Origin: the human T2T-CHM13v2.0 reference genome, Homo sapiens
Assembly (NCBI RefSeq): GCF_009914755.1
Contig: NC_060933.1
DNA: 64,000 nucleotides
Strand: one strand, 5' to 3'
In this document: in pieces, positions 38,526 to 48,070 of the stretch
How positions within the stretch are numbered: position 1 is the stretch's first letter
How the letters are laid out: each line of letters starts with the position of its first letter
Made by a program: the position numbers and the translations under genes
The notes under the pieces: model-generated
Seen by the model: only the letters and a program-made list of their open reading frames with translations
What the model was told of the DNA's origin: nothing
Database searches by the model: none

Positions 38526-40868
38526 AAAGCTGGTTTGGAGTTTCTGTGGAAGCTGTAGCTTTTAAGAAAAATCACTAACATGTGGTCTTTTGGCTGAGAG
38601 GTTTTTTGGTGGAGCTTCAAAAGAGCAGTGAGGGGGAAGGTGACACCTGCCTGGGTGATCACATTAACCAAATCTGCTTGAGGCATCAGTGTTGAAGCCA
38701 AATCTTGTTACACAGAACTGATGTTTGGACAGTCACTCACTCTTCTTGAATTTTCTTTGTTAAATTGGAATCTTAATTACTTACCTTATGGAGTTGTGCT
38801 GGAATGGTGTATGTCAAAAAAGTTACTTGGAAACAGTAACACAACACATTTACTAGTCACCTTTCTGCCTGGAAGATACAGGATCCCCATCCACATCAGC
38901 TGCTCAGAGTTGGCATGGTGCCAGCTTCCTTTCTAGGAATTCATCTGTCCCAACCACACAAAAATAAAAATGCAAATACCTTCTGGCATGATGAAAAATA
39001 ATGCAATGATTTTCACATTTTGGATGATGCTTAAAAATCAACAGGGGCCATTGTAAAGACTCTTCCAAGCATCTTTAAAAAGGACTGACATGTCATCATT
39101 TTGTTGGGAGTTTTCATCCCTTTTTCATTCCACCTTGTAATTTTCCTTCTGGACCAGTTAGCAAAAAAAAAAAAAAAAAAAAAAAAAAAGCAGCAATAAA
39201 AGAAAGCCTTAAGAAAACACTCCCATGTCTCATAGTTAGCCAGAGGTTTCTGAAATGGTCACTTCCTGCCTAATCCTGGCCTCACATCCTTATTCAGGTG
39301 CCTGAGTTGGGTTGGGGCTCCTTGGTTAAGAAAGCAAGGGCATAATGATATCTTCTGTAAACATATGCTCCCTTTTAAAGGGATTCTTATGATTACCAGA
39401 ATACTTATAATTTTCATCTCAAGGATTGGCTGAGTTGGAAGGTTTAGTTTTTGATGGTTCCAAATCTCAATATGTTTCTGACAAATGGTGGATGGCCTTG
39501 TCTTTAGCAGTCACTCTGTATATTCATGAAATTAGGTGGTTGGCTCAATTTGATTATTACAGTTTTCTGTATTCCTTCTGGGGTTACCATTAACAATGTT
39601 CAGCAATTTTAAAAACAATTTTTATTGTACTTTTGTGTATAATGCACGCTAACTTTCACTACTTTTGGCTCACTGCTACATTTGAATGACCCAGTTTTGA
39701 GGAAGATATTGGTACCTACACTTGGCTTCTCCAATCCCTCCATAATCCATAGATTTACTGGTTTTCTCTATGCATGGAATCACCCGTAATGCCCCATCCA
39801 GTTATCTAATTGTGGGTTTGATTTCTTTAGGATAATCTTAACAATGCCTTCACTAAATCAGGAGAATACCTAAACAAACACAACAGTATTTTACATGAAC
39901 CTTTTTTTAAAAAAATTTGCATTTGGAAACTATTCTCTCAGAAAACTTTTCTGAGCACCTATTCAGTGTCAGGCATTCTGCTTAATGTTTGAGTACAAGA
40001 AGAAGTACAATCATCATAGCATTGGTTATAAGTTCTTTGAGGGCAGTAGCTGTGTATTAGTCACCCTTGAATATGCCAAATACAAGTACTTAAAATATAC
40101 TAATAATCATGATAAAATAAGTAGTGTTAATACATAGTTATTAATAAAGTACCCTGGAGCCATATGGCTTTAGTAGTGAATTATTTCAAAATTTAAAGAA
40201 CAGATACATACATACATTATTTCACGTAGAAAATAAAGGAGTTTTTCATGTAGGAAGCATTTTTTATTGTGAGGGAGGTAATGCATCTTCTGAGCTCTTT
40301 TCCTACATTTGTGTGAGTTTTTATAGGAGGCAAGACCCACATCCCATAATATATTCTCAGATAGCCATATAATTGCTCTCCTTGGATACAGAAACTGGGC
40401 CTTGTGCAAGCTGCCATCCCAGGGTTTTGAATCTGAATGAGTAAGGCAAAGAAACAGTAGCAGAGCAAATGTTCTGAAGTGGTAGGAGTGGCTCCCGGGC
40501 CCAATGATGGTACTGCCCATGACGACACACTAGCTGTGGGCTGGCGTATTTGGTTTCCCTTGGTTTATGGGCTTGGTCTTCTAGCTTTGTAATTTATTAT
40601 GTGAGCTATTCACTGTCTTACTAATCAAACCATTCTTTGATGAAGTTTCCCAGTGTTAATGTCTGTTATGACAGTTCTATTTGATAATACCTCTCAAATA
40701 CACTCGAGTATTCCACCAGTTTCTTTAAGTGTTTTTCCTGTACCATAGATTTGAATGCACTTTCCTTCACCTGGAAATATTTCTGTTATTTTCAACCAAG
40801 AACCCTAACTGGTGTAGAAATTTTCATAAGAGAGGATTACATGCAAATGATTCTCAGAAGGTAGGGAA

Positions 40869-41129: not shown

Positions 41130-42310
41130 GTCAGAGAGAGTAGGTGCTTCTAATAGCTCTGAGTAACTTAAAGAAAGAGAAAGACTTGTTCAAATGTCTT
41201 GGCTCAACAAATAAATAGAAACCCAGGAAATGTTAATATCTGTGCCAAAGAGTTGTCTTTCCTTTTGCTAGTTCAAACAAAATGTGGTTTACTGAGGTGC
41301 AATGTCAGCTGAATGCATAGACTTAACAGGTTTATTATGTGAAAGGTATGGAAAAGAATGACACCGGAAGACTTGGAAAGGAGATCCCATCCCCCAGCTT
41401 TCCTTGTTAACCAAATAGCCCATTCTCTCTTACATAATAATGCTAGTAATATCTTGCTAAATGATACTGTAACTTCTTTACCAGAGGGCATTACTTTTTA
41501 AAGGAAAGCCAGTTTGTACTCCTGTCCTTCTTTATTTCTAAACAAACTAAAAGAATTCAGCACATCTCAGAAGACAACCCAGAAGAAAAAGACTTCAACA
41601 CCAAAATGATTGTAGGACTTTGCCAATTTATGTTGCCAAGACTCTGAAGAATGTGTATGAGAATGCTTGCCTGGGTGCTGAATCAGGGAAGGAAAAACAG
41701 AACTTTAGATAGGGCTGAATACTTTGAAATGGGTGTGCTTATCAGAAATTCTGGATTCAGTGTGCCATATTTAGCAGATGGAACAGTTCTATTTGGTTGG
41801 TTGACTGAAATCAGGATATTATTTTGTAATCTTGTTCCTTATTAAATGAAGCTTAGATACAGAATTTTCTTTACTGACTGTAAGACAGGGGATACTGATG
41901 GGAGAAAGCAGCATTTACTGATGGTGAAATCAGCATGGGAAGATTTGGAGGTGAAGACACCCATTCATGACATTTAACAACTAGGGGAGCAAGATCAGAG
42001 GTTATCACCATTATCAGAATCTGCAGGGATCTTTGGTTAGTCACTAGGACCAAAATGGAAGGCAGCACACTAAAGTTCTTCACTTGTATGATTGAAAAAA
42101 GAAAATTCCCTGCAATCTGATGAACTATGGCCTGACATGAGCTACTAAAAAGATCATGTCCAGTAACCAAATCCCCAGACCTGAGTAAGGTCATGACATA
42201 TTTTGATTAAAGAGGAGACTGCATTCCTGGAATGGCATAACCCCACAGTCACATCACAGCTATGTACTGGGAGTCTTCCTCCTAATCTTATTCAAAGGGA
42301 CCTGCCACAC
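41130..42310 (+). mobile_element. Ancient ERV-L internal fragment: gag to pre-protease region
   Basis: ORF 41651-41845 (WVLNQGRKNRTLDRAEYFEMGVLIRNSGFSV...LFGWLTEI) aligns by eye to ERV-L Gag (RVWDNGGRNIELDQAEFIDLGPLSRDSAFNV...LFAWLAEI). About 41295-41385 resembles LQRKV..QV..VK..GKEWDP.TW.GD, and 42277-42310 reads PPNLIQRDLPH. Confidence 0.75.
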
Positions 42311-42857
42311 TGTGATGGTACATATTGAGTGTCAACTTAATGGGACTGAAGGATACAAAGTATTGTTTCTGGGTGTGTCTGTGAGTGTGTTGCCAAAGGA
42401 GATTAACATTTGAGTCAGTGAACTGGGAAAGGCAGACCCACCCTCATTCTGGATGGGCACCATCTAATCAGCTGCCAGAGCAGCTAGAATAAAAGCAGGC
42501 AGAAGAACGTGGAAGGACTAGATTGGGTGAGTCTTCTCACTTCCATATTTCTCTTGTGCTGAATGCTTCCTGCCCTCAAACATCAGACTCCAGGTTCTCC
42601 AGCCTTTGGACTCTTGGACTTATACCAGTGGTTTGCTACGGGCTCTCTGGCTTTCGGCCACAGACTGAAGGCTGTATTATCAGTGTCCCTACTTTTGAAG
42701 TTTTGGGACACGGACTGGCTTCCTGGCTCCTCAGCTTGCAGAAAGCCTATTGTGGGACTTCGCCTTGTGATCATGTAAGTCAATTCTCCTAATAAACTCC
42801 CCTTCATATATTCATATCTATCCTATTAGTTATGTCCCTCTAGAGAACCCTAATACA
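42311..42857 (+). mobile_element. MLT2A2-like solo LTR (HERV-L LTR), 547 bp
   Basis: TGTGATGG...CTAATACA termini, AATAAA at 42791, and an extra ~100-bp internal segment relative to the two provirus LTRs. Confidence 0.9.
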
Positions 42858-42871
42858 CCTTGTAAAGTGTG

Positions 42872-43315
42872 TGTATTAGTCAGGGTTCTCTAGAGGGACA
42901 GAACTAATAGGTTATATATATAAAGGGGAGTTTATTAAGTTGTATTAACTCACATGATCGCAAGGTCCCACAATAGGCCATCTGCCAGCTGAGGAACAAG
43001 GAAGCCAGTCCAAGTCCCAAGGCTGAAGAACTTGGAATCTGATGTTTGAGGGCAGAAAGCATCCAGCACAGGAGAAAGATGTAAGCTGGGAGGCTAAGTC
43101 GGTCTAGGCTTTTCATGTTTTTCTGCCTGCTTTATATTCTGTCTGCACTGGCAGCTGATTAGATGGTGCCCACCCAGATTAAGGGTGAATCTGCCTTTCC
43201 CAGCCCACTGACTCAAATGTTAATCTCCTTTGGCAGTACCCTCACAGACACACCCAGGATCAATACTTTGCATCCTTCAATCCAATAAAGTTGACACTAA
43301 GTATTAACCATCACA
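42872..43315 (-). mobile_element. HERV-L 3' LTR (MLT2A1-like), 444 bp
   Basis: TG...CA termini; preceded on the minus strand by the polypurine tract ACAAGGGGTGGACT (43316-43329); AATAAA at 42931-42936 (minus). Confidence 0.93.
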
Positions 43316-46300
43316 AGTCCACCCCTTGTCAACTTGAACCCATACCCATCTCCTGAGATCATACATAATCTTCAAATAAAGACAATAATAAGGTCATAAT
43401 TATGCTTAATAACCATACAACCAGAAATGCACCAATCTCAACCCAAATACTATTACATAAAGTTAACAATACTTAAATGCTGATATGAAGTCAATAAATC
43501 TTATGTCACATGATAAAGAATAGGAAATAAAATGAAGATATTTTCTTCGTACAAGTGTATACATGCACAAACATGTTTTTAACAAAAGAAGGAAGAAATA
43601 CTCATGACAATTACAGTCCTCGTTTCTACAACTGGTCATGTGGTCATAGCTGGTATTGATGACTACCACCTTCTACTACCCATTCTGTATTTGCTTTGCC
43701 TTCAACAAGCACCTCAGCTGGTCATGTTTTTTTCCTGGTGGAGTGACCCAAACCTTCATTCCTGAAGGGCCTGGGCCATTTGTAGTCCTGCCTGGCTTGG
43801 GCTGTTGTAGTTTCCCACTGACCTTAATCACAGGGCATGGTAATGCTAAGAGACACCCTAATGGATTTCCTGTATTCCATGTATACTCTTCCTTACCTCC
43901 ATTGTGGAGTAGTAGACTGATTTCAATTTGATGGTCCAGGTCAGTCACACCAGCTAACCCCAGCCAACACTGTAACTCCCTTCTTAGCCTGTTGACTTAA
44001 AGGTAGGAGGAGCCCAAAGTGTCCAGGTGGCAATCTTAACTTCCAGTTTAATGGAATTGTTGTTGCGTCCTCCTGGTGGCAGTATTCCTCCCTCTGGAAC
44101 TAAGACCTCTAGGCCAGCAGAACATAATGTTGCAGGAGCAGGAAGCAAAAGTTTTGCAAGTGGATCATTAGGGGTGATGGAGAGTGGTGCCACTTCCACT
44201 TCCACCCCTTGATTTCTGGACCTGTGAATCCTGGCTATGGGATAAACAGTACCATATACTGGATGCTGATTCAGAGCATATATGGCCTTCTGGAGAACTT
44301 TGCCCCAGCCCTGCAAAGTATTGTCACTTCGTTGGCATTGTAATTGTGACATCAAAAGGCCATTCTACCATTCTATCAATCCAGCTGCTTCAGGATTATG
44401 AGGAACATGGTAAGACCAGTGAATTCAATGAGAATGAGCCCACTGCTGCACTTCTTTAGCTGTAAAGTGAGTGCCTTGGTCAGAGGCAATGCTATGTGGA
44501 ATACCATGATGGTGGATAAGCATTCCATGAGTCCATGGATGGTAGTCTTGGTAGAAGCATTGCATGCAGGATAGGCAAACCCATATCCAGAGTAAGTGTC
44601 TATTCCAGTGAGGACAAACCTCTGCCCTTTCCATGATGAGAGGTCCAATATAATCAACCTGCCAACAGGTAGCTGGCTGATCACCCCCAAAAATGGTGCC
44701 ATATCAAAGTCTCAGTGTTGGTCTCTTGTTGGCAAATTGGACACTTGGTGGTAGCTGTAGCCTGATCAGTCTTGATGAGTGGAAGTCCATGTTGCTGAGC
44801 CCATGCATAACCTCCATCCTTGACACCATGGCTACTTTGTTCATGGGCCCATTGGGCGATGACAGGGGTGGCTGGGGAAAGAGGCTGAGTGGTGTCCACA
44901 GAATGGGTCATTCTATCTGCTTGCTTATAAAATCTTTCTCTGCTGAGGTCACCTGTTGGTGAACACTCACATAGGATACAAATATCTTCACAGTTTTTGC
45001 TGACTCAGGGAGGTCCATCTACATACCTTTTCCCCAAACTTCTTTGTCACTAGTTTTCCAGTCATGCTTCTTCCAAGTCCCTGACCATCCAGCCAAACCA
45101 TCAGCTACAGCCCATGAATCAGTATATAATCACACATCTGGCCATTTCTCCTTCCATGCAAAGTGCACAACTAGGTTAACTGCTTGAAGTTCTGCTCATT
45201 GGGAAGATTTCCCTCTGCCGCTGTCTTTCAGGGATGTCCTAGAAAGGGGCTGTAGTGCTGCAGCTCTCTACTTTCTGGTGCTACCTGCATACCATGCAGA
45301 ACCATCTATGAACCAGGCCCTAGTCTTCTCTTTCTCTGTCAACTGATCATAGGGAACTCCCCATGAGACCATCAGTGCAGGCTGGGGGAGAGCAGACAGG
45401 ATCACAGGAGTGGATGGGCATTTGAGCCATTTTTTCATATAATTTACTTGTGCCTTCCGGGCCTGTTCGAACCCGATCACATATATACCACTTCCATTTG
45501 TTGATAGAATGCTGCTGTGCATGACCCACTTTATGGCTAGATGAGTCAGAAAGCACCCAGTTTATGATAGGCAGTTCAGGTCACATGGTGACTTGACGAC
45601 CCATAGTCAAATGCTCAGTTTCTGTCAAAACCCAGTAATAGGCCAAGAGCTGTCTCTCAAAAGGAGAGTAGTTATATCTGCAGAAGATGGCAGGGTCTTG
45701 CTCCAAAATCCTAAAAGCCTTTGCTGTGATTCACCTATGGGGGCCTGCCAAAGACTCCAAACAGCATCCCTATCTGCCACTGACACTCAAGCACCATTGG
45801 ATCTGCTGGGTCATTTGGCCCAAGTGGCAGAGCAGCTTGCACAGCAGACTGGACCTGTTGCAGAGCCTTCTCCTGTTCTGAACCCACTCAAAACTGGCAG
45901 CCTTTTGGGTCACTCGATAAATGGGCCAGAGTAACACACCCAAATGAGGAATGTGTTGCCTCCAGAATCCAAATAGGCCCACTAGGCATTGTTCCTCTTT
46001 TTTGGTTGTGGGAGGGGCCAAATGCAGAAACTTATCCTTTACCTTGGAATATCTCAACAGGCCCCCCACATCACTGGATCCCCAGAAATTTTACTAAGGT
46101 AGAAGTTCCCTGAATTTTAGTCAGATTTGTTTCCCATCCCCTGGTACACAAATGTCTCATCAATAAGTCCACTATGTTTGCTACTTCTTGCTCATTGGAT
46201 CCAATCAGCATAGTGTCATCATTGTAATGGACCAGTGTGATGTCTTGTGGAAGTGAAAAGCAATCAAAGTCTCTCTGAATAAGATTGTGACACAAACCTA

Positions 46301-47059
46301 GAGAATTGATATACCCCTGAGGTAAGACAGCAAAGGTATATTGCTGGCCTTACCAGCTGAAGGCAAATTGCTTCTGGTGGGCCTTATGGACAGGAATGGA
46401 GAAAAAGGCATTTGCCAAGTCAATGGCTGCATACCAGGTAAGAGGAGATGTGTTTATTTGCTCAAGCGATGAAGCCATATCTGGTACAGCAGCTCCAGTT
46501 GGAGTCACCACTTGGTTAAGCTTGTGATAATCCACTCTTATTCTCCAGGATCCATCTGTCTTCTGCACAGGCCAAATGGGAGAGTTGAATGGGGATGTGG
46601 TGGGAATCACCACCCATGCATTTTTCAAGTCTTTGATGGTGGCACTAATAACCATCCTTCCAGGGATGCAATATTGTTCTTGATTTACTATTTTTCTAGG
46701 TAGAGTGCAGATCTAATGGCTTCCACTTGACCTCTCCCACCATAATAGACCTCACCCTACCAGGTAGGGAGCCAATGTTGGGGTTCTGCCAGCTGCTAAG
46801 TATGTCTCTGCCAATTATGCATTCTGGCACAGGGGAAATGACCACAGGATGAATCCAGGGACCCACTGGACCCACTGTAAGTTGGACCTGAGTGAAAACT
46901 CCATTAATTACCTGTCCTCCATACTACTAGAAGCAGAGTCCTTAGCATTTTTAGGTCTAATCATATTAAGTAGCCAGCTCCAGGAACCCCCAAACCAATG
47001 GAAGAACTTAATATTCCTTAATATTCTGTTCCTCTAGAGCCAATCCTGGTATGAAAATC
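43316..47059 (-). mobile_element. HERV-L internal region, gag-deleted, with decayed pro-RT-RNaseH-IN-dUTPase
   Basis: RT motifs [29 protein letters not shown] and HYNDD; RNaseH WFIDGSA; IN HHCC (WAHEQSSH...CPICQ), GIDTYSG and SDQGTHF; dUTPase-region LEVLVPEGGILPPG downstream of IN; no env. Degenerate tRNA-Leu PBS region GATTTTCATACCAGGATTGG next to the 5' LTR. Confidence 0.95.
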
Positions 47060-47101
47060 TGTATTAGTTCAGGGGTTCTCTGGAGAAACAGAAATAATAG
47101 A

Positions 47102-47162
<61 letters not shown>

Positions 47163-47543
47163 CATTAAGTAGTATTAACTCACATGATCACAGGTCCTGG
47201 AATAGGCCATCTGCAAGCTGAGGAGCAAGGAAGCCTGTCTGAGTCCCAAAGCTGAAGAACTTGGAGTCTGATGTTTGTGGGCAGGAAGCATCCAGCACAG
47301 GAGAGGATGCAGGCTGGGAGGCTAAGCCAGTCTAGCCTTTTCATGTATTTCTGCCTGTTTTATATTCTGGCCACACTGGCAACTAATTAGATGGTGTCCA
47401 TCCAGATTAAGGGTGAGTCTGCCTTTCCCAGCCCACTGACTCAAATGCTAATCTCCCTTGACAACACCCTCACAGACACACCTAGGATCAATACTTTGGA
47501 TCATTCAATCCAATCAAGTTGACACTCAGTATTAACCATCACA
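47060..47543 (-). mobile_element. HERV-L 5' LTR (MLT2A1-like) with internal (CA)n expansion
   Basis: Same orientation as 42872-43315 and about 90% identical by manual count over the first ~175 bp; adjoins the PBS; (TG)n run at 47109-47161. Confidence 0.93.
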
Positions 47544-48070
47544 CAAAGTAAGTATACACTGGAGTATGAAAAATATCCAGATTCTTCCAGGATTCTTAGA
47601 CAGGGACTATGAGCCCACATTAATTCTTGGGAGCCCAGAATACTACTACATTCAACCAGTCAGAGTGGGAATTTACTAGGTTCAGGTGATAAATAGAGTT
47701 CTGCTTTGAGTGTGCCTCACATGAGCTGTGTCGGACCCTGATTCTATTCCCATTCTATAGTTGTTTTTCTATTCCCTGACTGTACAGAAGGAATATACAA
47801 CCTCAGAAACTAGAAAAATTCTTATCTTGGCTCTGTGAGTATTAGATAAAGGAATGATATGGTAGAAAAGGCCAAATGGAAGTCTCTGGAATTCTCCCAT
47901 TCTGCTAAAAACCATAAATTTAAAGCAATATTCTATTTTTTGGGGGAACTTATAGTGATTAGTGCTTCCATTAGAGAAGTAAACATTGTGGGGATGGGAA
48001 TTCTTATATTTATTTCTCCATGTATGTTCAATGCACAATATAAATAGATTTTTGGAGTGACATAATACTA
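47544..48070 (+). mobile_element. Continuation of the ancient ERV-L internal region: protease and start of RT
   Basis: Reads KVSIHW...GFLDRDYEPTLILGSP...VRVGIY*VQVINRVL (cf. RVTVHW...GLLDTGSELTLIPGDP...VKVGAYGGQVINGVL). ORF 47859 MVEKAKWKSLEF...ISASIREV matches MVGKAKWKPLEL...ISATIKDL. Confidence 0.8.

What the first reader, a model, noticed from the sequence alone, without database searches (positions are those of the whole stretch)
42306..47548. Swapped TSDs reveal a micro-inversion of the 14-bp spacer between two tail-to-tail HERV-L LTRs
Seen: CACAC [MLT2A2 solo LTR, +] CCTTGTAAAGTGTG [HERV-L provirus, -] CAAAG. Neither element has matching direct TSDs as it stands. The reverse complement of the spacer is CACAC-TTTA-CAAGG, which restores both 5-bp ERVL TSDs (CACAC/CACAC, and CAAGG/CAAAG with one mismatch). 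It also restores the host ERV-L frame GAC CTG CCA CAC TTT ACA AAG (DLPHFTK), followed after a one-base slip by VSIHW (cf. DLRPFTRVTVHW). The subfamily-like features of the solo LTR and the provirus LTRs are not exchanged except possibly in the last ~40 bp. Inference: only the hairpin loop flipped, by template switching or recombination between the inverted LTR ends. It may be recurrent or polymorphic.
Basis: partly seen in the sequence, partly recalled or inferred. Interest (0 to 1): 0.8.

Follow-up and report, generated by a model that had tools for sequence, protein, structure and literature searches.

The report
Flipped 14-bp spacer between inverted LTRs
Two ancient retroviral insertions sit tail to tail in human chromosome 9, and the 14 bases between them have been turned around; this is a clean but ordinary example of a known kind of small inversion between inverted repeats.

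Summary
A 547-bp solo ERV-L LTR (+, 42311-42857) and a gag-less HERV-L provirus (-, 42872-47543) lie tail to tail, separated by CCTTGTAAAGTGTG (42858-42871). Neither element has direct 5-bp target-site duplications as it stands. The reverse complement of the spacer (CACAC-TTTA-CAAGG) restores both: 0 and 1 mismatch. Chance gives this in 58 of 1,000,000 spacer permutations.

An independent test agrees. In 31 of 31 fetched HERV-L paralogues of the interrupted host element, the homologous 14 nt match the reverse-complemented spacer better than the present one.

Subfamily markers show no LTR chimerism. The solo LTR is long-type at 95 of 108 marker columns and short-type at 1. Both provirus LTRs are short-type at 108 of 108. 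So the breakpoints lie within about 39 bp of the spacer. The alternative is the outermost 14 bp of the whole 5.2-kb complex, a rival that gives the same product and that one genome cannot exclude.

The most likely cause is inversion of an inverted-repeat spacer, by replication template switching or by exchange between the hairpin arms. This class is already documented in human-chimpanzee comparisons, and the swapped-duplication logic is published too. Polymorphism or recurrence was not testable. It is a new member of a known kind, of low to moderate interest.

The parts
42197..42310 (+). Left flank of the host: an old, degenerate ERV-L-like fragment just upstream of the protease. Its last 5 nt, CACAC (42306-42310), are the left copy of target-site duplication 1.
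   Evidence: The nucleotide alignment to HERV-L paralogues is co-linear. It ends 8-11 nt before the paralogue position that matches the right flank, with z >= 3 in 8 of 11. The peptide matches are weak.
42311..42857 (+). Solo LTR, 547 bp, long ERV-L LTR type, TG...CA termini. A private 4-nt deletion lies about 8 nt from its 3' end.
   Evidence: 29 genomic copies are 85-88% identical over positions 1-541/547. It is long-type at 95 of 108 diagnostic columns, neither type at 12 and short-type at 1. Boundaries were checked. No internal sequence lies on either side.
42858..42871 (.). 14-bp spacer CCTTGTAAAGTGTG, host DNA in inverted orientation. It is the reverse complement of [duplication 1 right copy CACAC][TTTA][duplication 2 left copy CAAGG].
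   Evidence: duplications and chance controls. (31 of 31 paralogues favour the reverse complement).
42814..42919 (.). Core of the quasi-palindrome: 38-nt arms that are 92% complementary (42814-42851 and 42882-42919) around the spacer.
   Evidence: pair I7. As single-stranded DNA, 42780-42950 folds to a hairpin of -50.6 kcal/mol, z = -13.8 against 200 shuffles.
42872..43315 (-). 3' LTR of the provirus ('near' LTR), 444 bp, short type.
   Evidence: 29 genomic copies are 88-92% identical. It is short-type at 108 of 108 diagnostic columns and 89% identical to the far LTR. Boundaries were checked.
43316..47070 (-). Internal part of the provirus, about 3.75 kb: pro (C-terminal part), RT and integrase remnants in many short frames. 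gag and the start of pro are absent.
   Evidence: tblastn with a HERV-L pro-pol open frame (L009) gives 72-85% amino-acid identity at 46923-45908 on the minus strand. Pfam RVT_1 matches 46712-46074 and rve matches 44703-44428. The frames are stop-ridden.
47071..47543 (-). 5' LTR of the provirus ('far' LTR), 473 bp, short type, carrying a (GT)n expansion at about 47110-47161.
47544..47548 (+). CAAAG, the right copy of target-site duplication 2. It has one mismatch to CAAGG in the reverse-complemented spacer. Paralogues carry G at that position, so the spacer copy looks ancestral.
47545..48002 (+). Right flank of the host: an ERV-L-like protease region, degenerate (the DTGS motif is replaced), about 45% amino-acid identity to HERV-L copies.
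   Evidence: At least 150 paralogous matches in the same genome. tblastn hits at 47545-47757 and 47730-48002. Nucleotide alignment z = 5.2-15.3 in 11 of 11.

Best explanation
Two ERV-L-family integrations hit the protease region of an older ERV-L-like element only 4 bp apart and in opposite orientation. Each made a 5-bp target-site duplication. One is now a long-type solo LTR (+). The other is a short-type HERV-L provirus (-). Their 3' LTR ends face each other, forming a 450-550-bp quasi-palindrome with a 14-bp loop made of duplication copy, TTTA and duplication copy.

Later the loop was reverse-complemented, with at most a few tens of bases of each LTR end. The exchange took place between the two inverted arms close to the loop. 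The most likely cause is an inter-strand template switch during replication (inverted-repeat spacer inversion). A hairpin- or cruciform-associated break with recombination between the arms is the other possibility.

The event is neutral. It has no coding or known regulatory consequence.

What is shown: the anatomy, the inverted state of the spacer relative to both flanks, and the absence of detectable LTR chimerism. What is inferred: the order of events, the molecular mechanism, and that only the loop moved rather than the whole complex.
For: The duplications are restored only by reverse complement: 0 and 1 mismatch, against 4 and 4 as the spacer stands. Chance is 58 in 1,000,000 permutations.

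The host paralogues fix the ancestral orientation. In 11 of 11 and 20 of 20 the reverse complement fits better at the register set by both flanks. The length between the flanks fits two 5-bp duplications: 25 nt in the window minus 10, against 14-15 nt in the paralogues.

The LTRs are not chimeric. Near and far are short-type at 108 of 108 diagnostic columns. The solo LTR is long-type at 95, neither at 12 and short-type at 1. The 98-nt block found only in the solo LTR is intact. Derived states shared by near and far lie at LTR positions 128, 199, 478 and 508, against one for solo=far and one for solo=near. This puts an inner breakpoint beyond position 508 of 547.

The arms next to the loop are 92% complementary over 38 nt, and the single strand folds at -50.6 kcal/mol, z = -13.8.

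Spacer inversion between inverted repeats by inter-strand template switching is documented for the human lineage (PMC5453318, passages read) and named as such in PMC8604942 (start of the abstract as listed).
Against: No orthologous or pre-inversion allele was seen. The ancestral state is inferred from paralogues of one family, which share ancestry and so count as roughly one comparison.

If the spacer may slide by +/-5 nt, the margin shrinks to typically 9 against 7 of 14, because the paralogue site is itself partly self-complementary.

The left-flank homology is weak: z < 3 in 3 of 11.

The final sequence is identical to what an inversion of the whole complex through its outer termini would give. 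Nothing in one genome separates template switching from break-and-rejoin.
Confidence: 0.82

Rival explanations
1. Whole-complex inversion. The provirus originally lay on the plus strand flanked by CACAC/CACAC, and the solo LTR on the minus strand flanked by CAAGG/CAAAG. A 5.2-kb inversion with breakpoints inside the outermost 9-14 bp of the two elements (the terminal inverted repeat TGTGATGGT...ACCATCACA) turned everything, spacer included.
For: It gives exactly the observed sequence and restores the same two duplications (reasoning). No diagnostic marker exists in LTR positions 1-14 to exclude it.
Against: Both breakpoints would have to fall in the outermost 14 of about 450 homologous bases. 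From position 15 onward the solo LTR is long-type and the far LTR short-type. Nine bases of identity 5.2 kb apart are a poor substrate, whereas 38-nt arms that are 92% complementary lie right next to a 14-bp loop. In the retrotransposon-mediated inversions of PMC2603318 the breakpoint elements become chimeric. That is not seen here.
Confidence: 0.08
2. Homologous recombination between the inverted LTR arms with a crossover well inside the LTRs (classical retrotransposon recombination-mediated inversion). This would leave chimeric LTRs.
For: An inverted homologous pair at the breakpoints and non-matching duplications are the published signature (PMC2603318, methods passage read).
Against: Chimerism was tested and not found. 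No marker switches between positions 15 and 471, and shared near=far states reach position 508. The arms are only 79-87% identical, with a 98-nt indel. The published size range was 166 bp to 81 kb.
Confidence: 0.04
3. No inversion. The swapped match of the flanks is chance, or the elements never had regular duplications.
For: Five-base words are short, and CACAC is of low complexity. The present orientation still matches paralogues at up to 7 of 14 positions when slid.
Against: Chance is about 6e-5 to 1.4e-4. Paralogues independently favour the reverse complement in 31 of 31. Without two duplications the host would carry 10 extra bases relative to its paralogues.
Confidence: 0.03

Closest known systems
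Inverted-repeat spacer inversion by replication template switching (Ripley-type quasi-palindrome mutation; four-point model of Loytynoja and Goldman 2017, PMC5453318)
   Same: A short segment between two inverted arms is replaced by its exact reverse complement, and the arms can form a hairpin. The class is documented between human and chimpanzee, for example a 6-bp spacer.
   Different: Here the arms are two independently inserted retroviral LTRs of 444 and 547 bp, not short repeats. The ancestral state is read from target-site duplications and paralogues, not from an orthologue. The event is undated.
Retrotransposon recombination-mediated inversion (Lee et al. 2008, PMC2603318), with the same duplication-exchange logic used for Galileo in Drosophila (PMC2775673, search listing only)
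   Same: A pair of homologous retroelements in inverted orientation at the breakpoints. The loss or exchange of matching duplications is the diagnostic.
   Different: Those events involve Alu and L1, span 166 bp to 81 kb and leave chimeric elements. Here the elements are LTRs, the inverted unique DNA is 14 bp, and no chimerism is detectable.
Hairpin-loop 'flip-flop' inversions in plastid non-coding DNA
   Same: A small loop between inverted arms flips, often recurrently and neutrally.
   Different: A different genome and different replication and recombination machinery. Recurrence at this locus is untested.

Membership tests
Inverted-repeat spacer inversion (template-switch class) | Inverted-repeat arms directly flank the changed segment | tested here: met
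   Arms 42814-42851 and 42882-42919 are 92% complementary, and longer arms are 79-87%. Hairpin of -50.6 kcal/mol, z = -13.8.
Inverted-repeat spacer inversion (template-switch class) | The segment is the reverse complement of the ancestral sequence | tested here: met
   The test is indirect. The duplications are restored with 0 and 1 mismatch, and 31 of 31 paralogues fit the reverse complement better. No orthologue was seen.
Inverted-repeat spacer inversion (template-switch class) | The ancestral state is seen in an orthologous outgroup, so that a single event is shown | not testable with these tools
   Only one human assembly is searchable here. No primate genomes are held.
Retrotransposon recombination-mediated inversion | Homologous elements in inverted orientation at both breakpoints, with non-matching duplications | tested here: met
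Retrotransposon recombination-mediated inversion | The breakpoint elements are chimeric | tested here: not met
   No switch at any of 108 diagnostic columns (positions 15-471). Shared near=far states reach position 508. The last 39 bp are uninformative.
ERV-L (class III) LTR and provirus | LTRs with TG...CA ends that have many full-length genomic relatives | tested here: met
ERV-L (class III) LTR and provirus | Internal pro-pol related to HERV-L | tested here: met
   72-85% amino-acid identity to a HERV-L pro-pol frame. Pfam RVT_1 and rve matches.
ERV-L (class III) LTR and provirus | 5-bp target-site duplication (the length is recalled) | tested here: met
   Met only after reverse-complementing the spacer.
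ERV-L (class III) LTR and provirus | Subfamily names MLT2A2 (solo) and MLT2A1 (provirus) | not testable with these tools
   No Dfam or RepeatMasker library is on hand. Only a long type (547 bp, with a 98-nt extra block) and a short type (444 bp) were shown.

The most novel reading that the evidence does not exclude
The loop is a neutral flip-flop. Because the quasi-palindrome persists, the 14-bp spacer may have inverted more than once, so its orientation may differ among primate lineages or even among human haplotypes in a way that conflicts with the species tree. A bolder variant is that the flip happened during gap repair of the second integration itself, with repair synthesis switching template to the inverted LTR end 4 bp away.
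Probability: 0.1. Interest if true: 0.5.

Novelty: new member of a known kind. Interest (0 to 1): 0.25.

Why it matters
The locus is a tidy natural example in which two target-site duplications act as built-in orientation tags for a 14-bp segment. An ancient micro-inversion can therefore be diagnosed from a single genome, without an outgroup. It also shows that a long LTR quasi-palindrome with a 14-bp spacer, about 80-87% arm identity and a 98-nt indel has survived for a long time.

It does not reveal a new mechanism. Spacer inversion between inverted repeats and the swapped-duplication diagnostic are both in print (PMC5453318, PMC2603318). No gene or annotated functional element is affected; the site lies in an intron of a predicted lncRNA, according to the hub's table.

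Its practical value is as a marker locus for scoring template-switch homoplasy across primate assemblies, and as a caution for aligners and repeat annotation.

Tried and rejected
- blastn of both host flanks against the provirus found no similarity, so the provirus could not serve as the paralogue.
- A DNA search of the genome with the left flank found only the locus itself.
- Pfam found no family for either flank peptide. The protease assignment rests on paralogues.
- I tested whether the last ~40 bp of the LTRs were exchanged or homogenised. The solo and near LTRs agree there against the far LTR at six of the columns outside the microsatellite. The comparison with 58 reference copies shows these to be private changes of the far LTR, not shared derived states. 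There is therefore no evidence for exchange or conversion.
- I asked whether the provirus's internal sequence begins at the same pro position as the host insertion site. The first alignable pro residue is about 79 of the L009 frame, while the insertion site is at about 31-36. I rejected this as a coincidence of numbers.
- I looked for other tail-to-tail ERV-L LTR pairs. A shorter exact pattern found one place on contig C21. It has no similarity to either LTR type at E <= 1e-5 and is only a 12-nt inverted repeat at the edge of another repeat. This exact-match search is insensitive and says nothing about frequency.
- A literature search for this locus or for LTR-pair micro-inversions found the general mechanisms but nothing on this site. 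That covers three searches of the held library, not all print.
Full report
**Anatomy**

Read on the plus strand, the region is laid out as follows:
- The host sequence ends ...GACCTGC CACAC (CACAC at 42306-42310).
- A 547-bp LTR, TGTGATGG...CTAATACA, runs from 42311 to 42857.
- The 14-base spacer CCTTGTAAAGTGTG lies at 42858-42871 and is unique in the window.
- A minus-strand provirus starts with TGTATTAG at 42872 and ends ...CCATCACA at 47543.
- CAAAG follows at 47544-47548, and then host sequence again.

The provirus has a 444-bp LTR next to the spacer (42872-43315) and a 473-bp LTR at the far end (47071-47543), which carries a (GT)n run. These two are 89% identical over 238 and 113 nt.

The internal 3.75 kb matches a HERV-L pro-pol frame at 72-85% amino-acid identity on the minus strand, at 46923-45908. 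It holds Pfam RVT_1 (46712-46074) and a piece of the integrase core (44703-44428). It is cut into many short frames. gag and the first part of pro are missing.

**Boundaries**

I compared each LTR, with its flanks, to 29 long-type and 29 short-type copies from the same genome.

| LTR end | Most frequent limits of similarity (of 29 copies) |
|---|---|
| Solo LTR, start | 42311 (13); 42310 (5) |
| Solo LTR, end | 42851 (10, just before a private 4-nt deletion); 42857 (5) |
| Near LTR, start | 42872 (7); 42871 (5); 42874 (4) |
| Near LTR, end | 43315 (12); 43316 (6) |
| Far LTR, end | 47543 (18) |

**Target-site duplications**

As the sequence stands, the five bases on either side of each element differ at 4 of 5 positions. 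The reverse complement of the spacer, CACAC-TTTA-CAAGG, matches the outer flanks with 0 and 1 mismatch. Only 58 of 1,000,000 permutations of the spacer do as well, and 9 of 63,986 14-mers of the window do, the real one included. This is more than chance.

**An independent test from paralogues**

The peptide of the right flank (47545-47676) finds at least 150 places in the same genome at 36-48% identity. These are the start of the HERV-L protease...RVTVHWGKGNDQTFQGLLDTGSELTLIPGDP....

In all 11 loci first fetched, the DNA reads ...GACCTC (C/T)(A/G)GCC TTTTACC AGG GTAACTGTGCACTGG, translating as GDL(R/Q/W)PFT|RVTVHW.

The host's left flank aligns co-linearly with the bases just upstream (z >= 3 in 8 of 11; 0.6-1.4 in the other 3). 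The right flank aligns just downstream (z = 5.2-15.3 in 11 of 11).

The table gives the number of matches, out of 14, between the paralogue interval and the spacer in each orientation.

| Paralogue set and register | Spacer as it stands | Reverse complement | Reverse complement better |
|---|---|---|---|
| First 11, register fixed by both flanks | 3-4 (sum 35 of 154) | 8-10 (sum 96 of 154) | 11 of 11 |
| 20 lower-scoring matches, fixed register | 2-5 | 5-10 | 20 of 20 |
| Same 20, spacer free to slide +/-5 nt | 5-7 | 6-10 | 20 of 20 |

Against my reading, the margin under sliding narrows to typically 9 against 7. The paralogue site is itself partly self-complementary (CCT...AGG). All these paralogues also belong to one family, so together they amount to about one independent comparison.

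The lengths fit as well. The window has 25 nt between the homologues of GACCTC and GTAAC, and the paralogues have 14-15. The difference is the 10 nt expected from two 5-bp duplications.

**Were the LTRs exchanged?**

The solo LTR carries a 98-nt block and a 5-nt block that both provirus LTRs lack.

Using 29 long-type and 29 short-type copies, 108 alignment columns separate the two types at 75% or more in each set. Three further trailing columns are artefacts of sequence ends. The near and far LTRs have the short-type state at 108 of 108. The solo LTR has the long-type state at 95, neither state at 12 and the short-type state at 1. The markers span LTR positions 15 to 471. None exists in positions 1-14 or 472-547.

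Derived states shared by two of the three LTRs against the reference majority are as follows:
- near=far at positions 128, 199, 478 and 508
- solo=far at position 143
- solo=near at position 231

In the last 40 bp the solo and near LTRs look alike against the far LTR. Those differences are private to the far LTR. There is thus no sign of exchange or of arm homogenisation, and equally no marker that could show one within about 39 bp of the spacer.

**What happened**

Only two inversions turn a regular two-insertion site into the observed order.
- (A) The spacer alone flipped, with breakpoints in or near the inner LTR ends.
- (B) The whole 5.2-kb complex flipped, with breakpoints in the outermost 14 bp (terminal inverted repeat TGTGATGGT/ACCATCACA).

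Both give the same sequence, so one genome cannot separate them.

I favour A, for two reasons. The inner ends offer 38-nt arms that are 92% complementary around a 14-bp loop, and the single strand folds at -50.6 kcal/mol, z = -13.8. B needs both breakpoints to fall in 14 of about 450 homologous bases that lie 5.2 kb apart.

A classical crossover inside the LTRs is disfavoured by the missing chimerism.

The mechanism is inference. An inter-strand template switch at a replication fork is documented to invert spacers of inverted repeats in the human lineage (PMC5453318, passages read; PMC8604942, start of the abstract as listed). A hairpin-associated break with exchange between the arms would give the same result.

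The order of the insertions is also inferred. The solo LTR is 85-88% identical to its kin, against 88-92% for the near LTR, which suggests that the solo LTR is the older.

**Comparison with what is known**

There the range was 166 bp to 81 kb and the elements became chimeric.

The present case works like an inverted-repeat spacer inversion. It fails the chimerism criterion of the recombination-mediated class. I therefore file it as a new member of the spacer-inversion class, with unusually long, transposon-derived arms.

Three library searches turned up nothing on this locus.

**Not tested**

I could not test orthologues, other human haplotypes, or polymorphism and recurrence. I could not check the subfamily names against Dfam, so MLT2A1 and MLT2A2 are recalled labels. 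I also could not measure how common such LTR pairs are. The one exact-pattern scan was too insensitive to say.

**Verdict**

The event is real, neutral and of a known kind. Interest is low to moderate.

Noticed in passing
window 42849-42857: The solo LTR lacks 4 nt that nearly all reference copies and both provirus LTRs have, about 8 nt from its 3' end and right beside the inverted spacer. It may be an unrelated slip between short direct repeats or a scar of the inversion event.
   Followed up: partly
window 47110-47161: A (GT)n run of about 26 units sits inside the 5' LTR of the provirus, where other copies have a short AT-rich stretch. The far LTR also carries a cluster of private substitutions in its last 40 bp.
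   Followed up: partly
window 42306-42310 and 42858-42871 with 47544-47548: Two independent ERV-L-family integrations landed 4 bp apart, between their duplicated pentamers, in opposite orientation, inside the protease region of an older ERV-L-like element. I did not examine whether the first LTR end favoured the second integration.
   Followed up: no
window 46924-47070: Between the 5' LTR and the first alignable pro residue (about residue 79 of the L009 frame), the provirus holds about 150 nt with no match to pro. gag and the start of pro appear to be deleted.
   Followed up: partly
L094 1501-1536 (G000 contig C21): A perfect 12-nt inverted repeat with a 12-bp spacer lies at the edge of another LTR-like repeat that also begins TGTATTAGTCAG. 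It has no similarity to either LTR type of the window at E <= 1e-5. It could be an inverted repeat created by a template switch.
   Followed up: partly
window 38861-39010: A weak tblastn match (36% over 56 aa, E = 7e-4) to a frame just downstream of the protease region of a HERV-L paralogue, about 3.3 kb left of the insertion site. It may be another fragment of an old ERV-L-like element.
   Followed up: no
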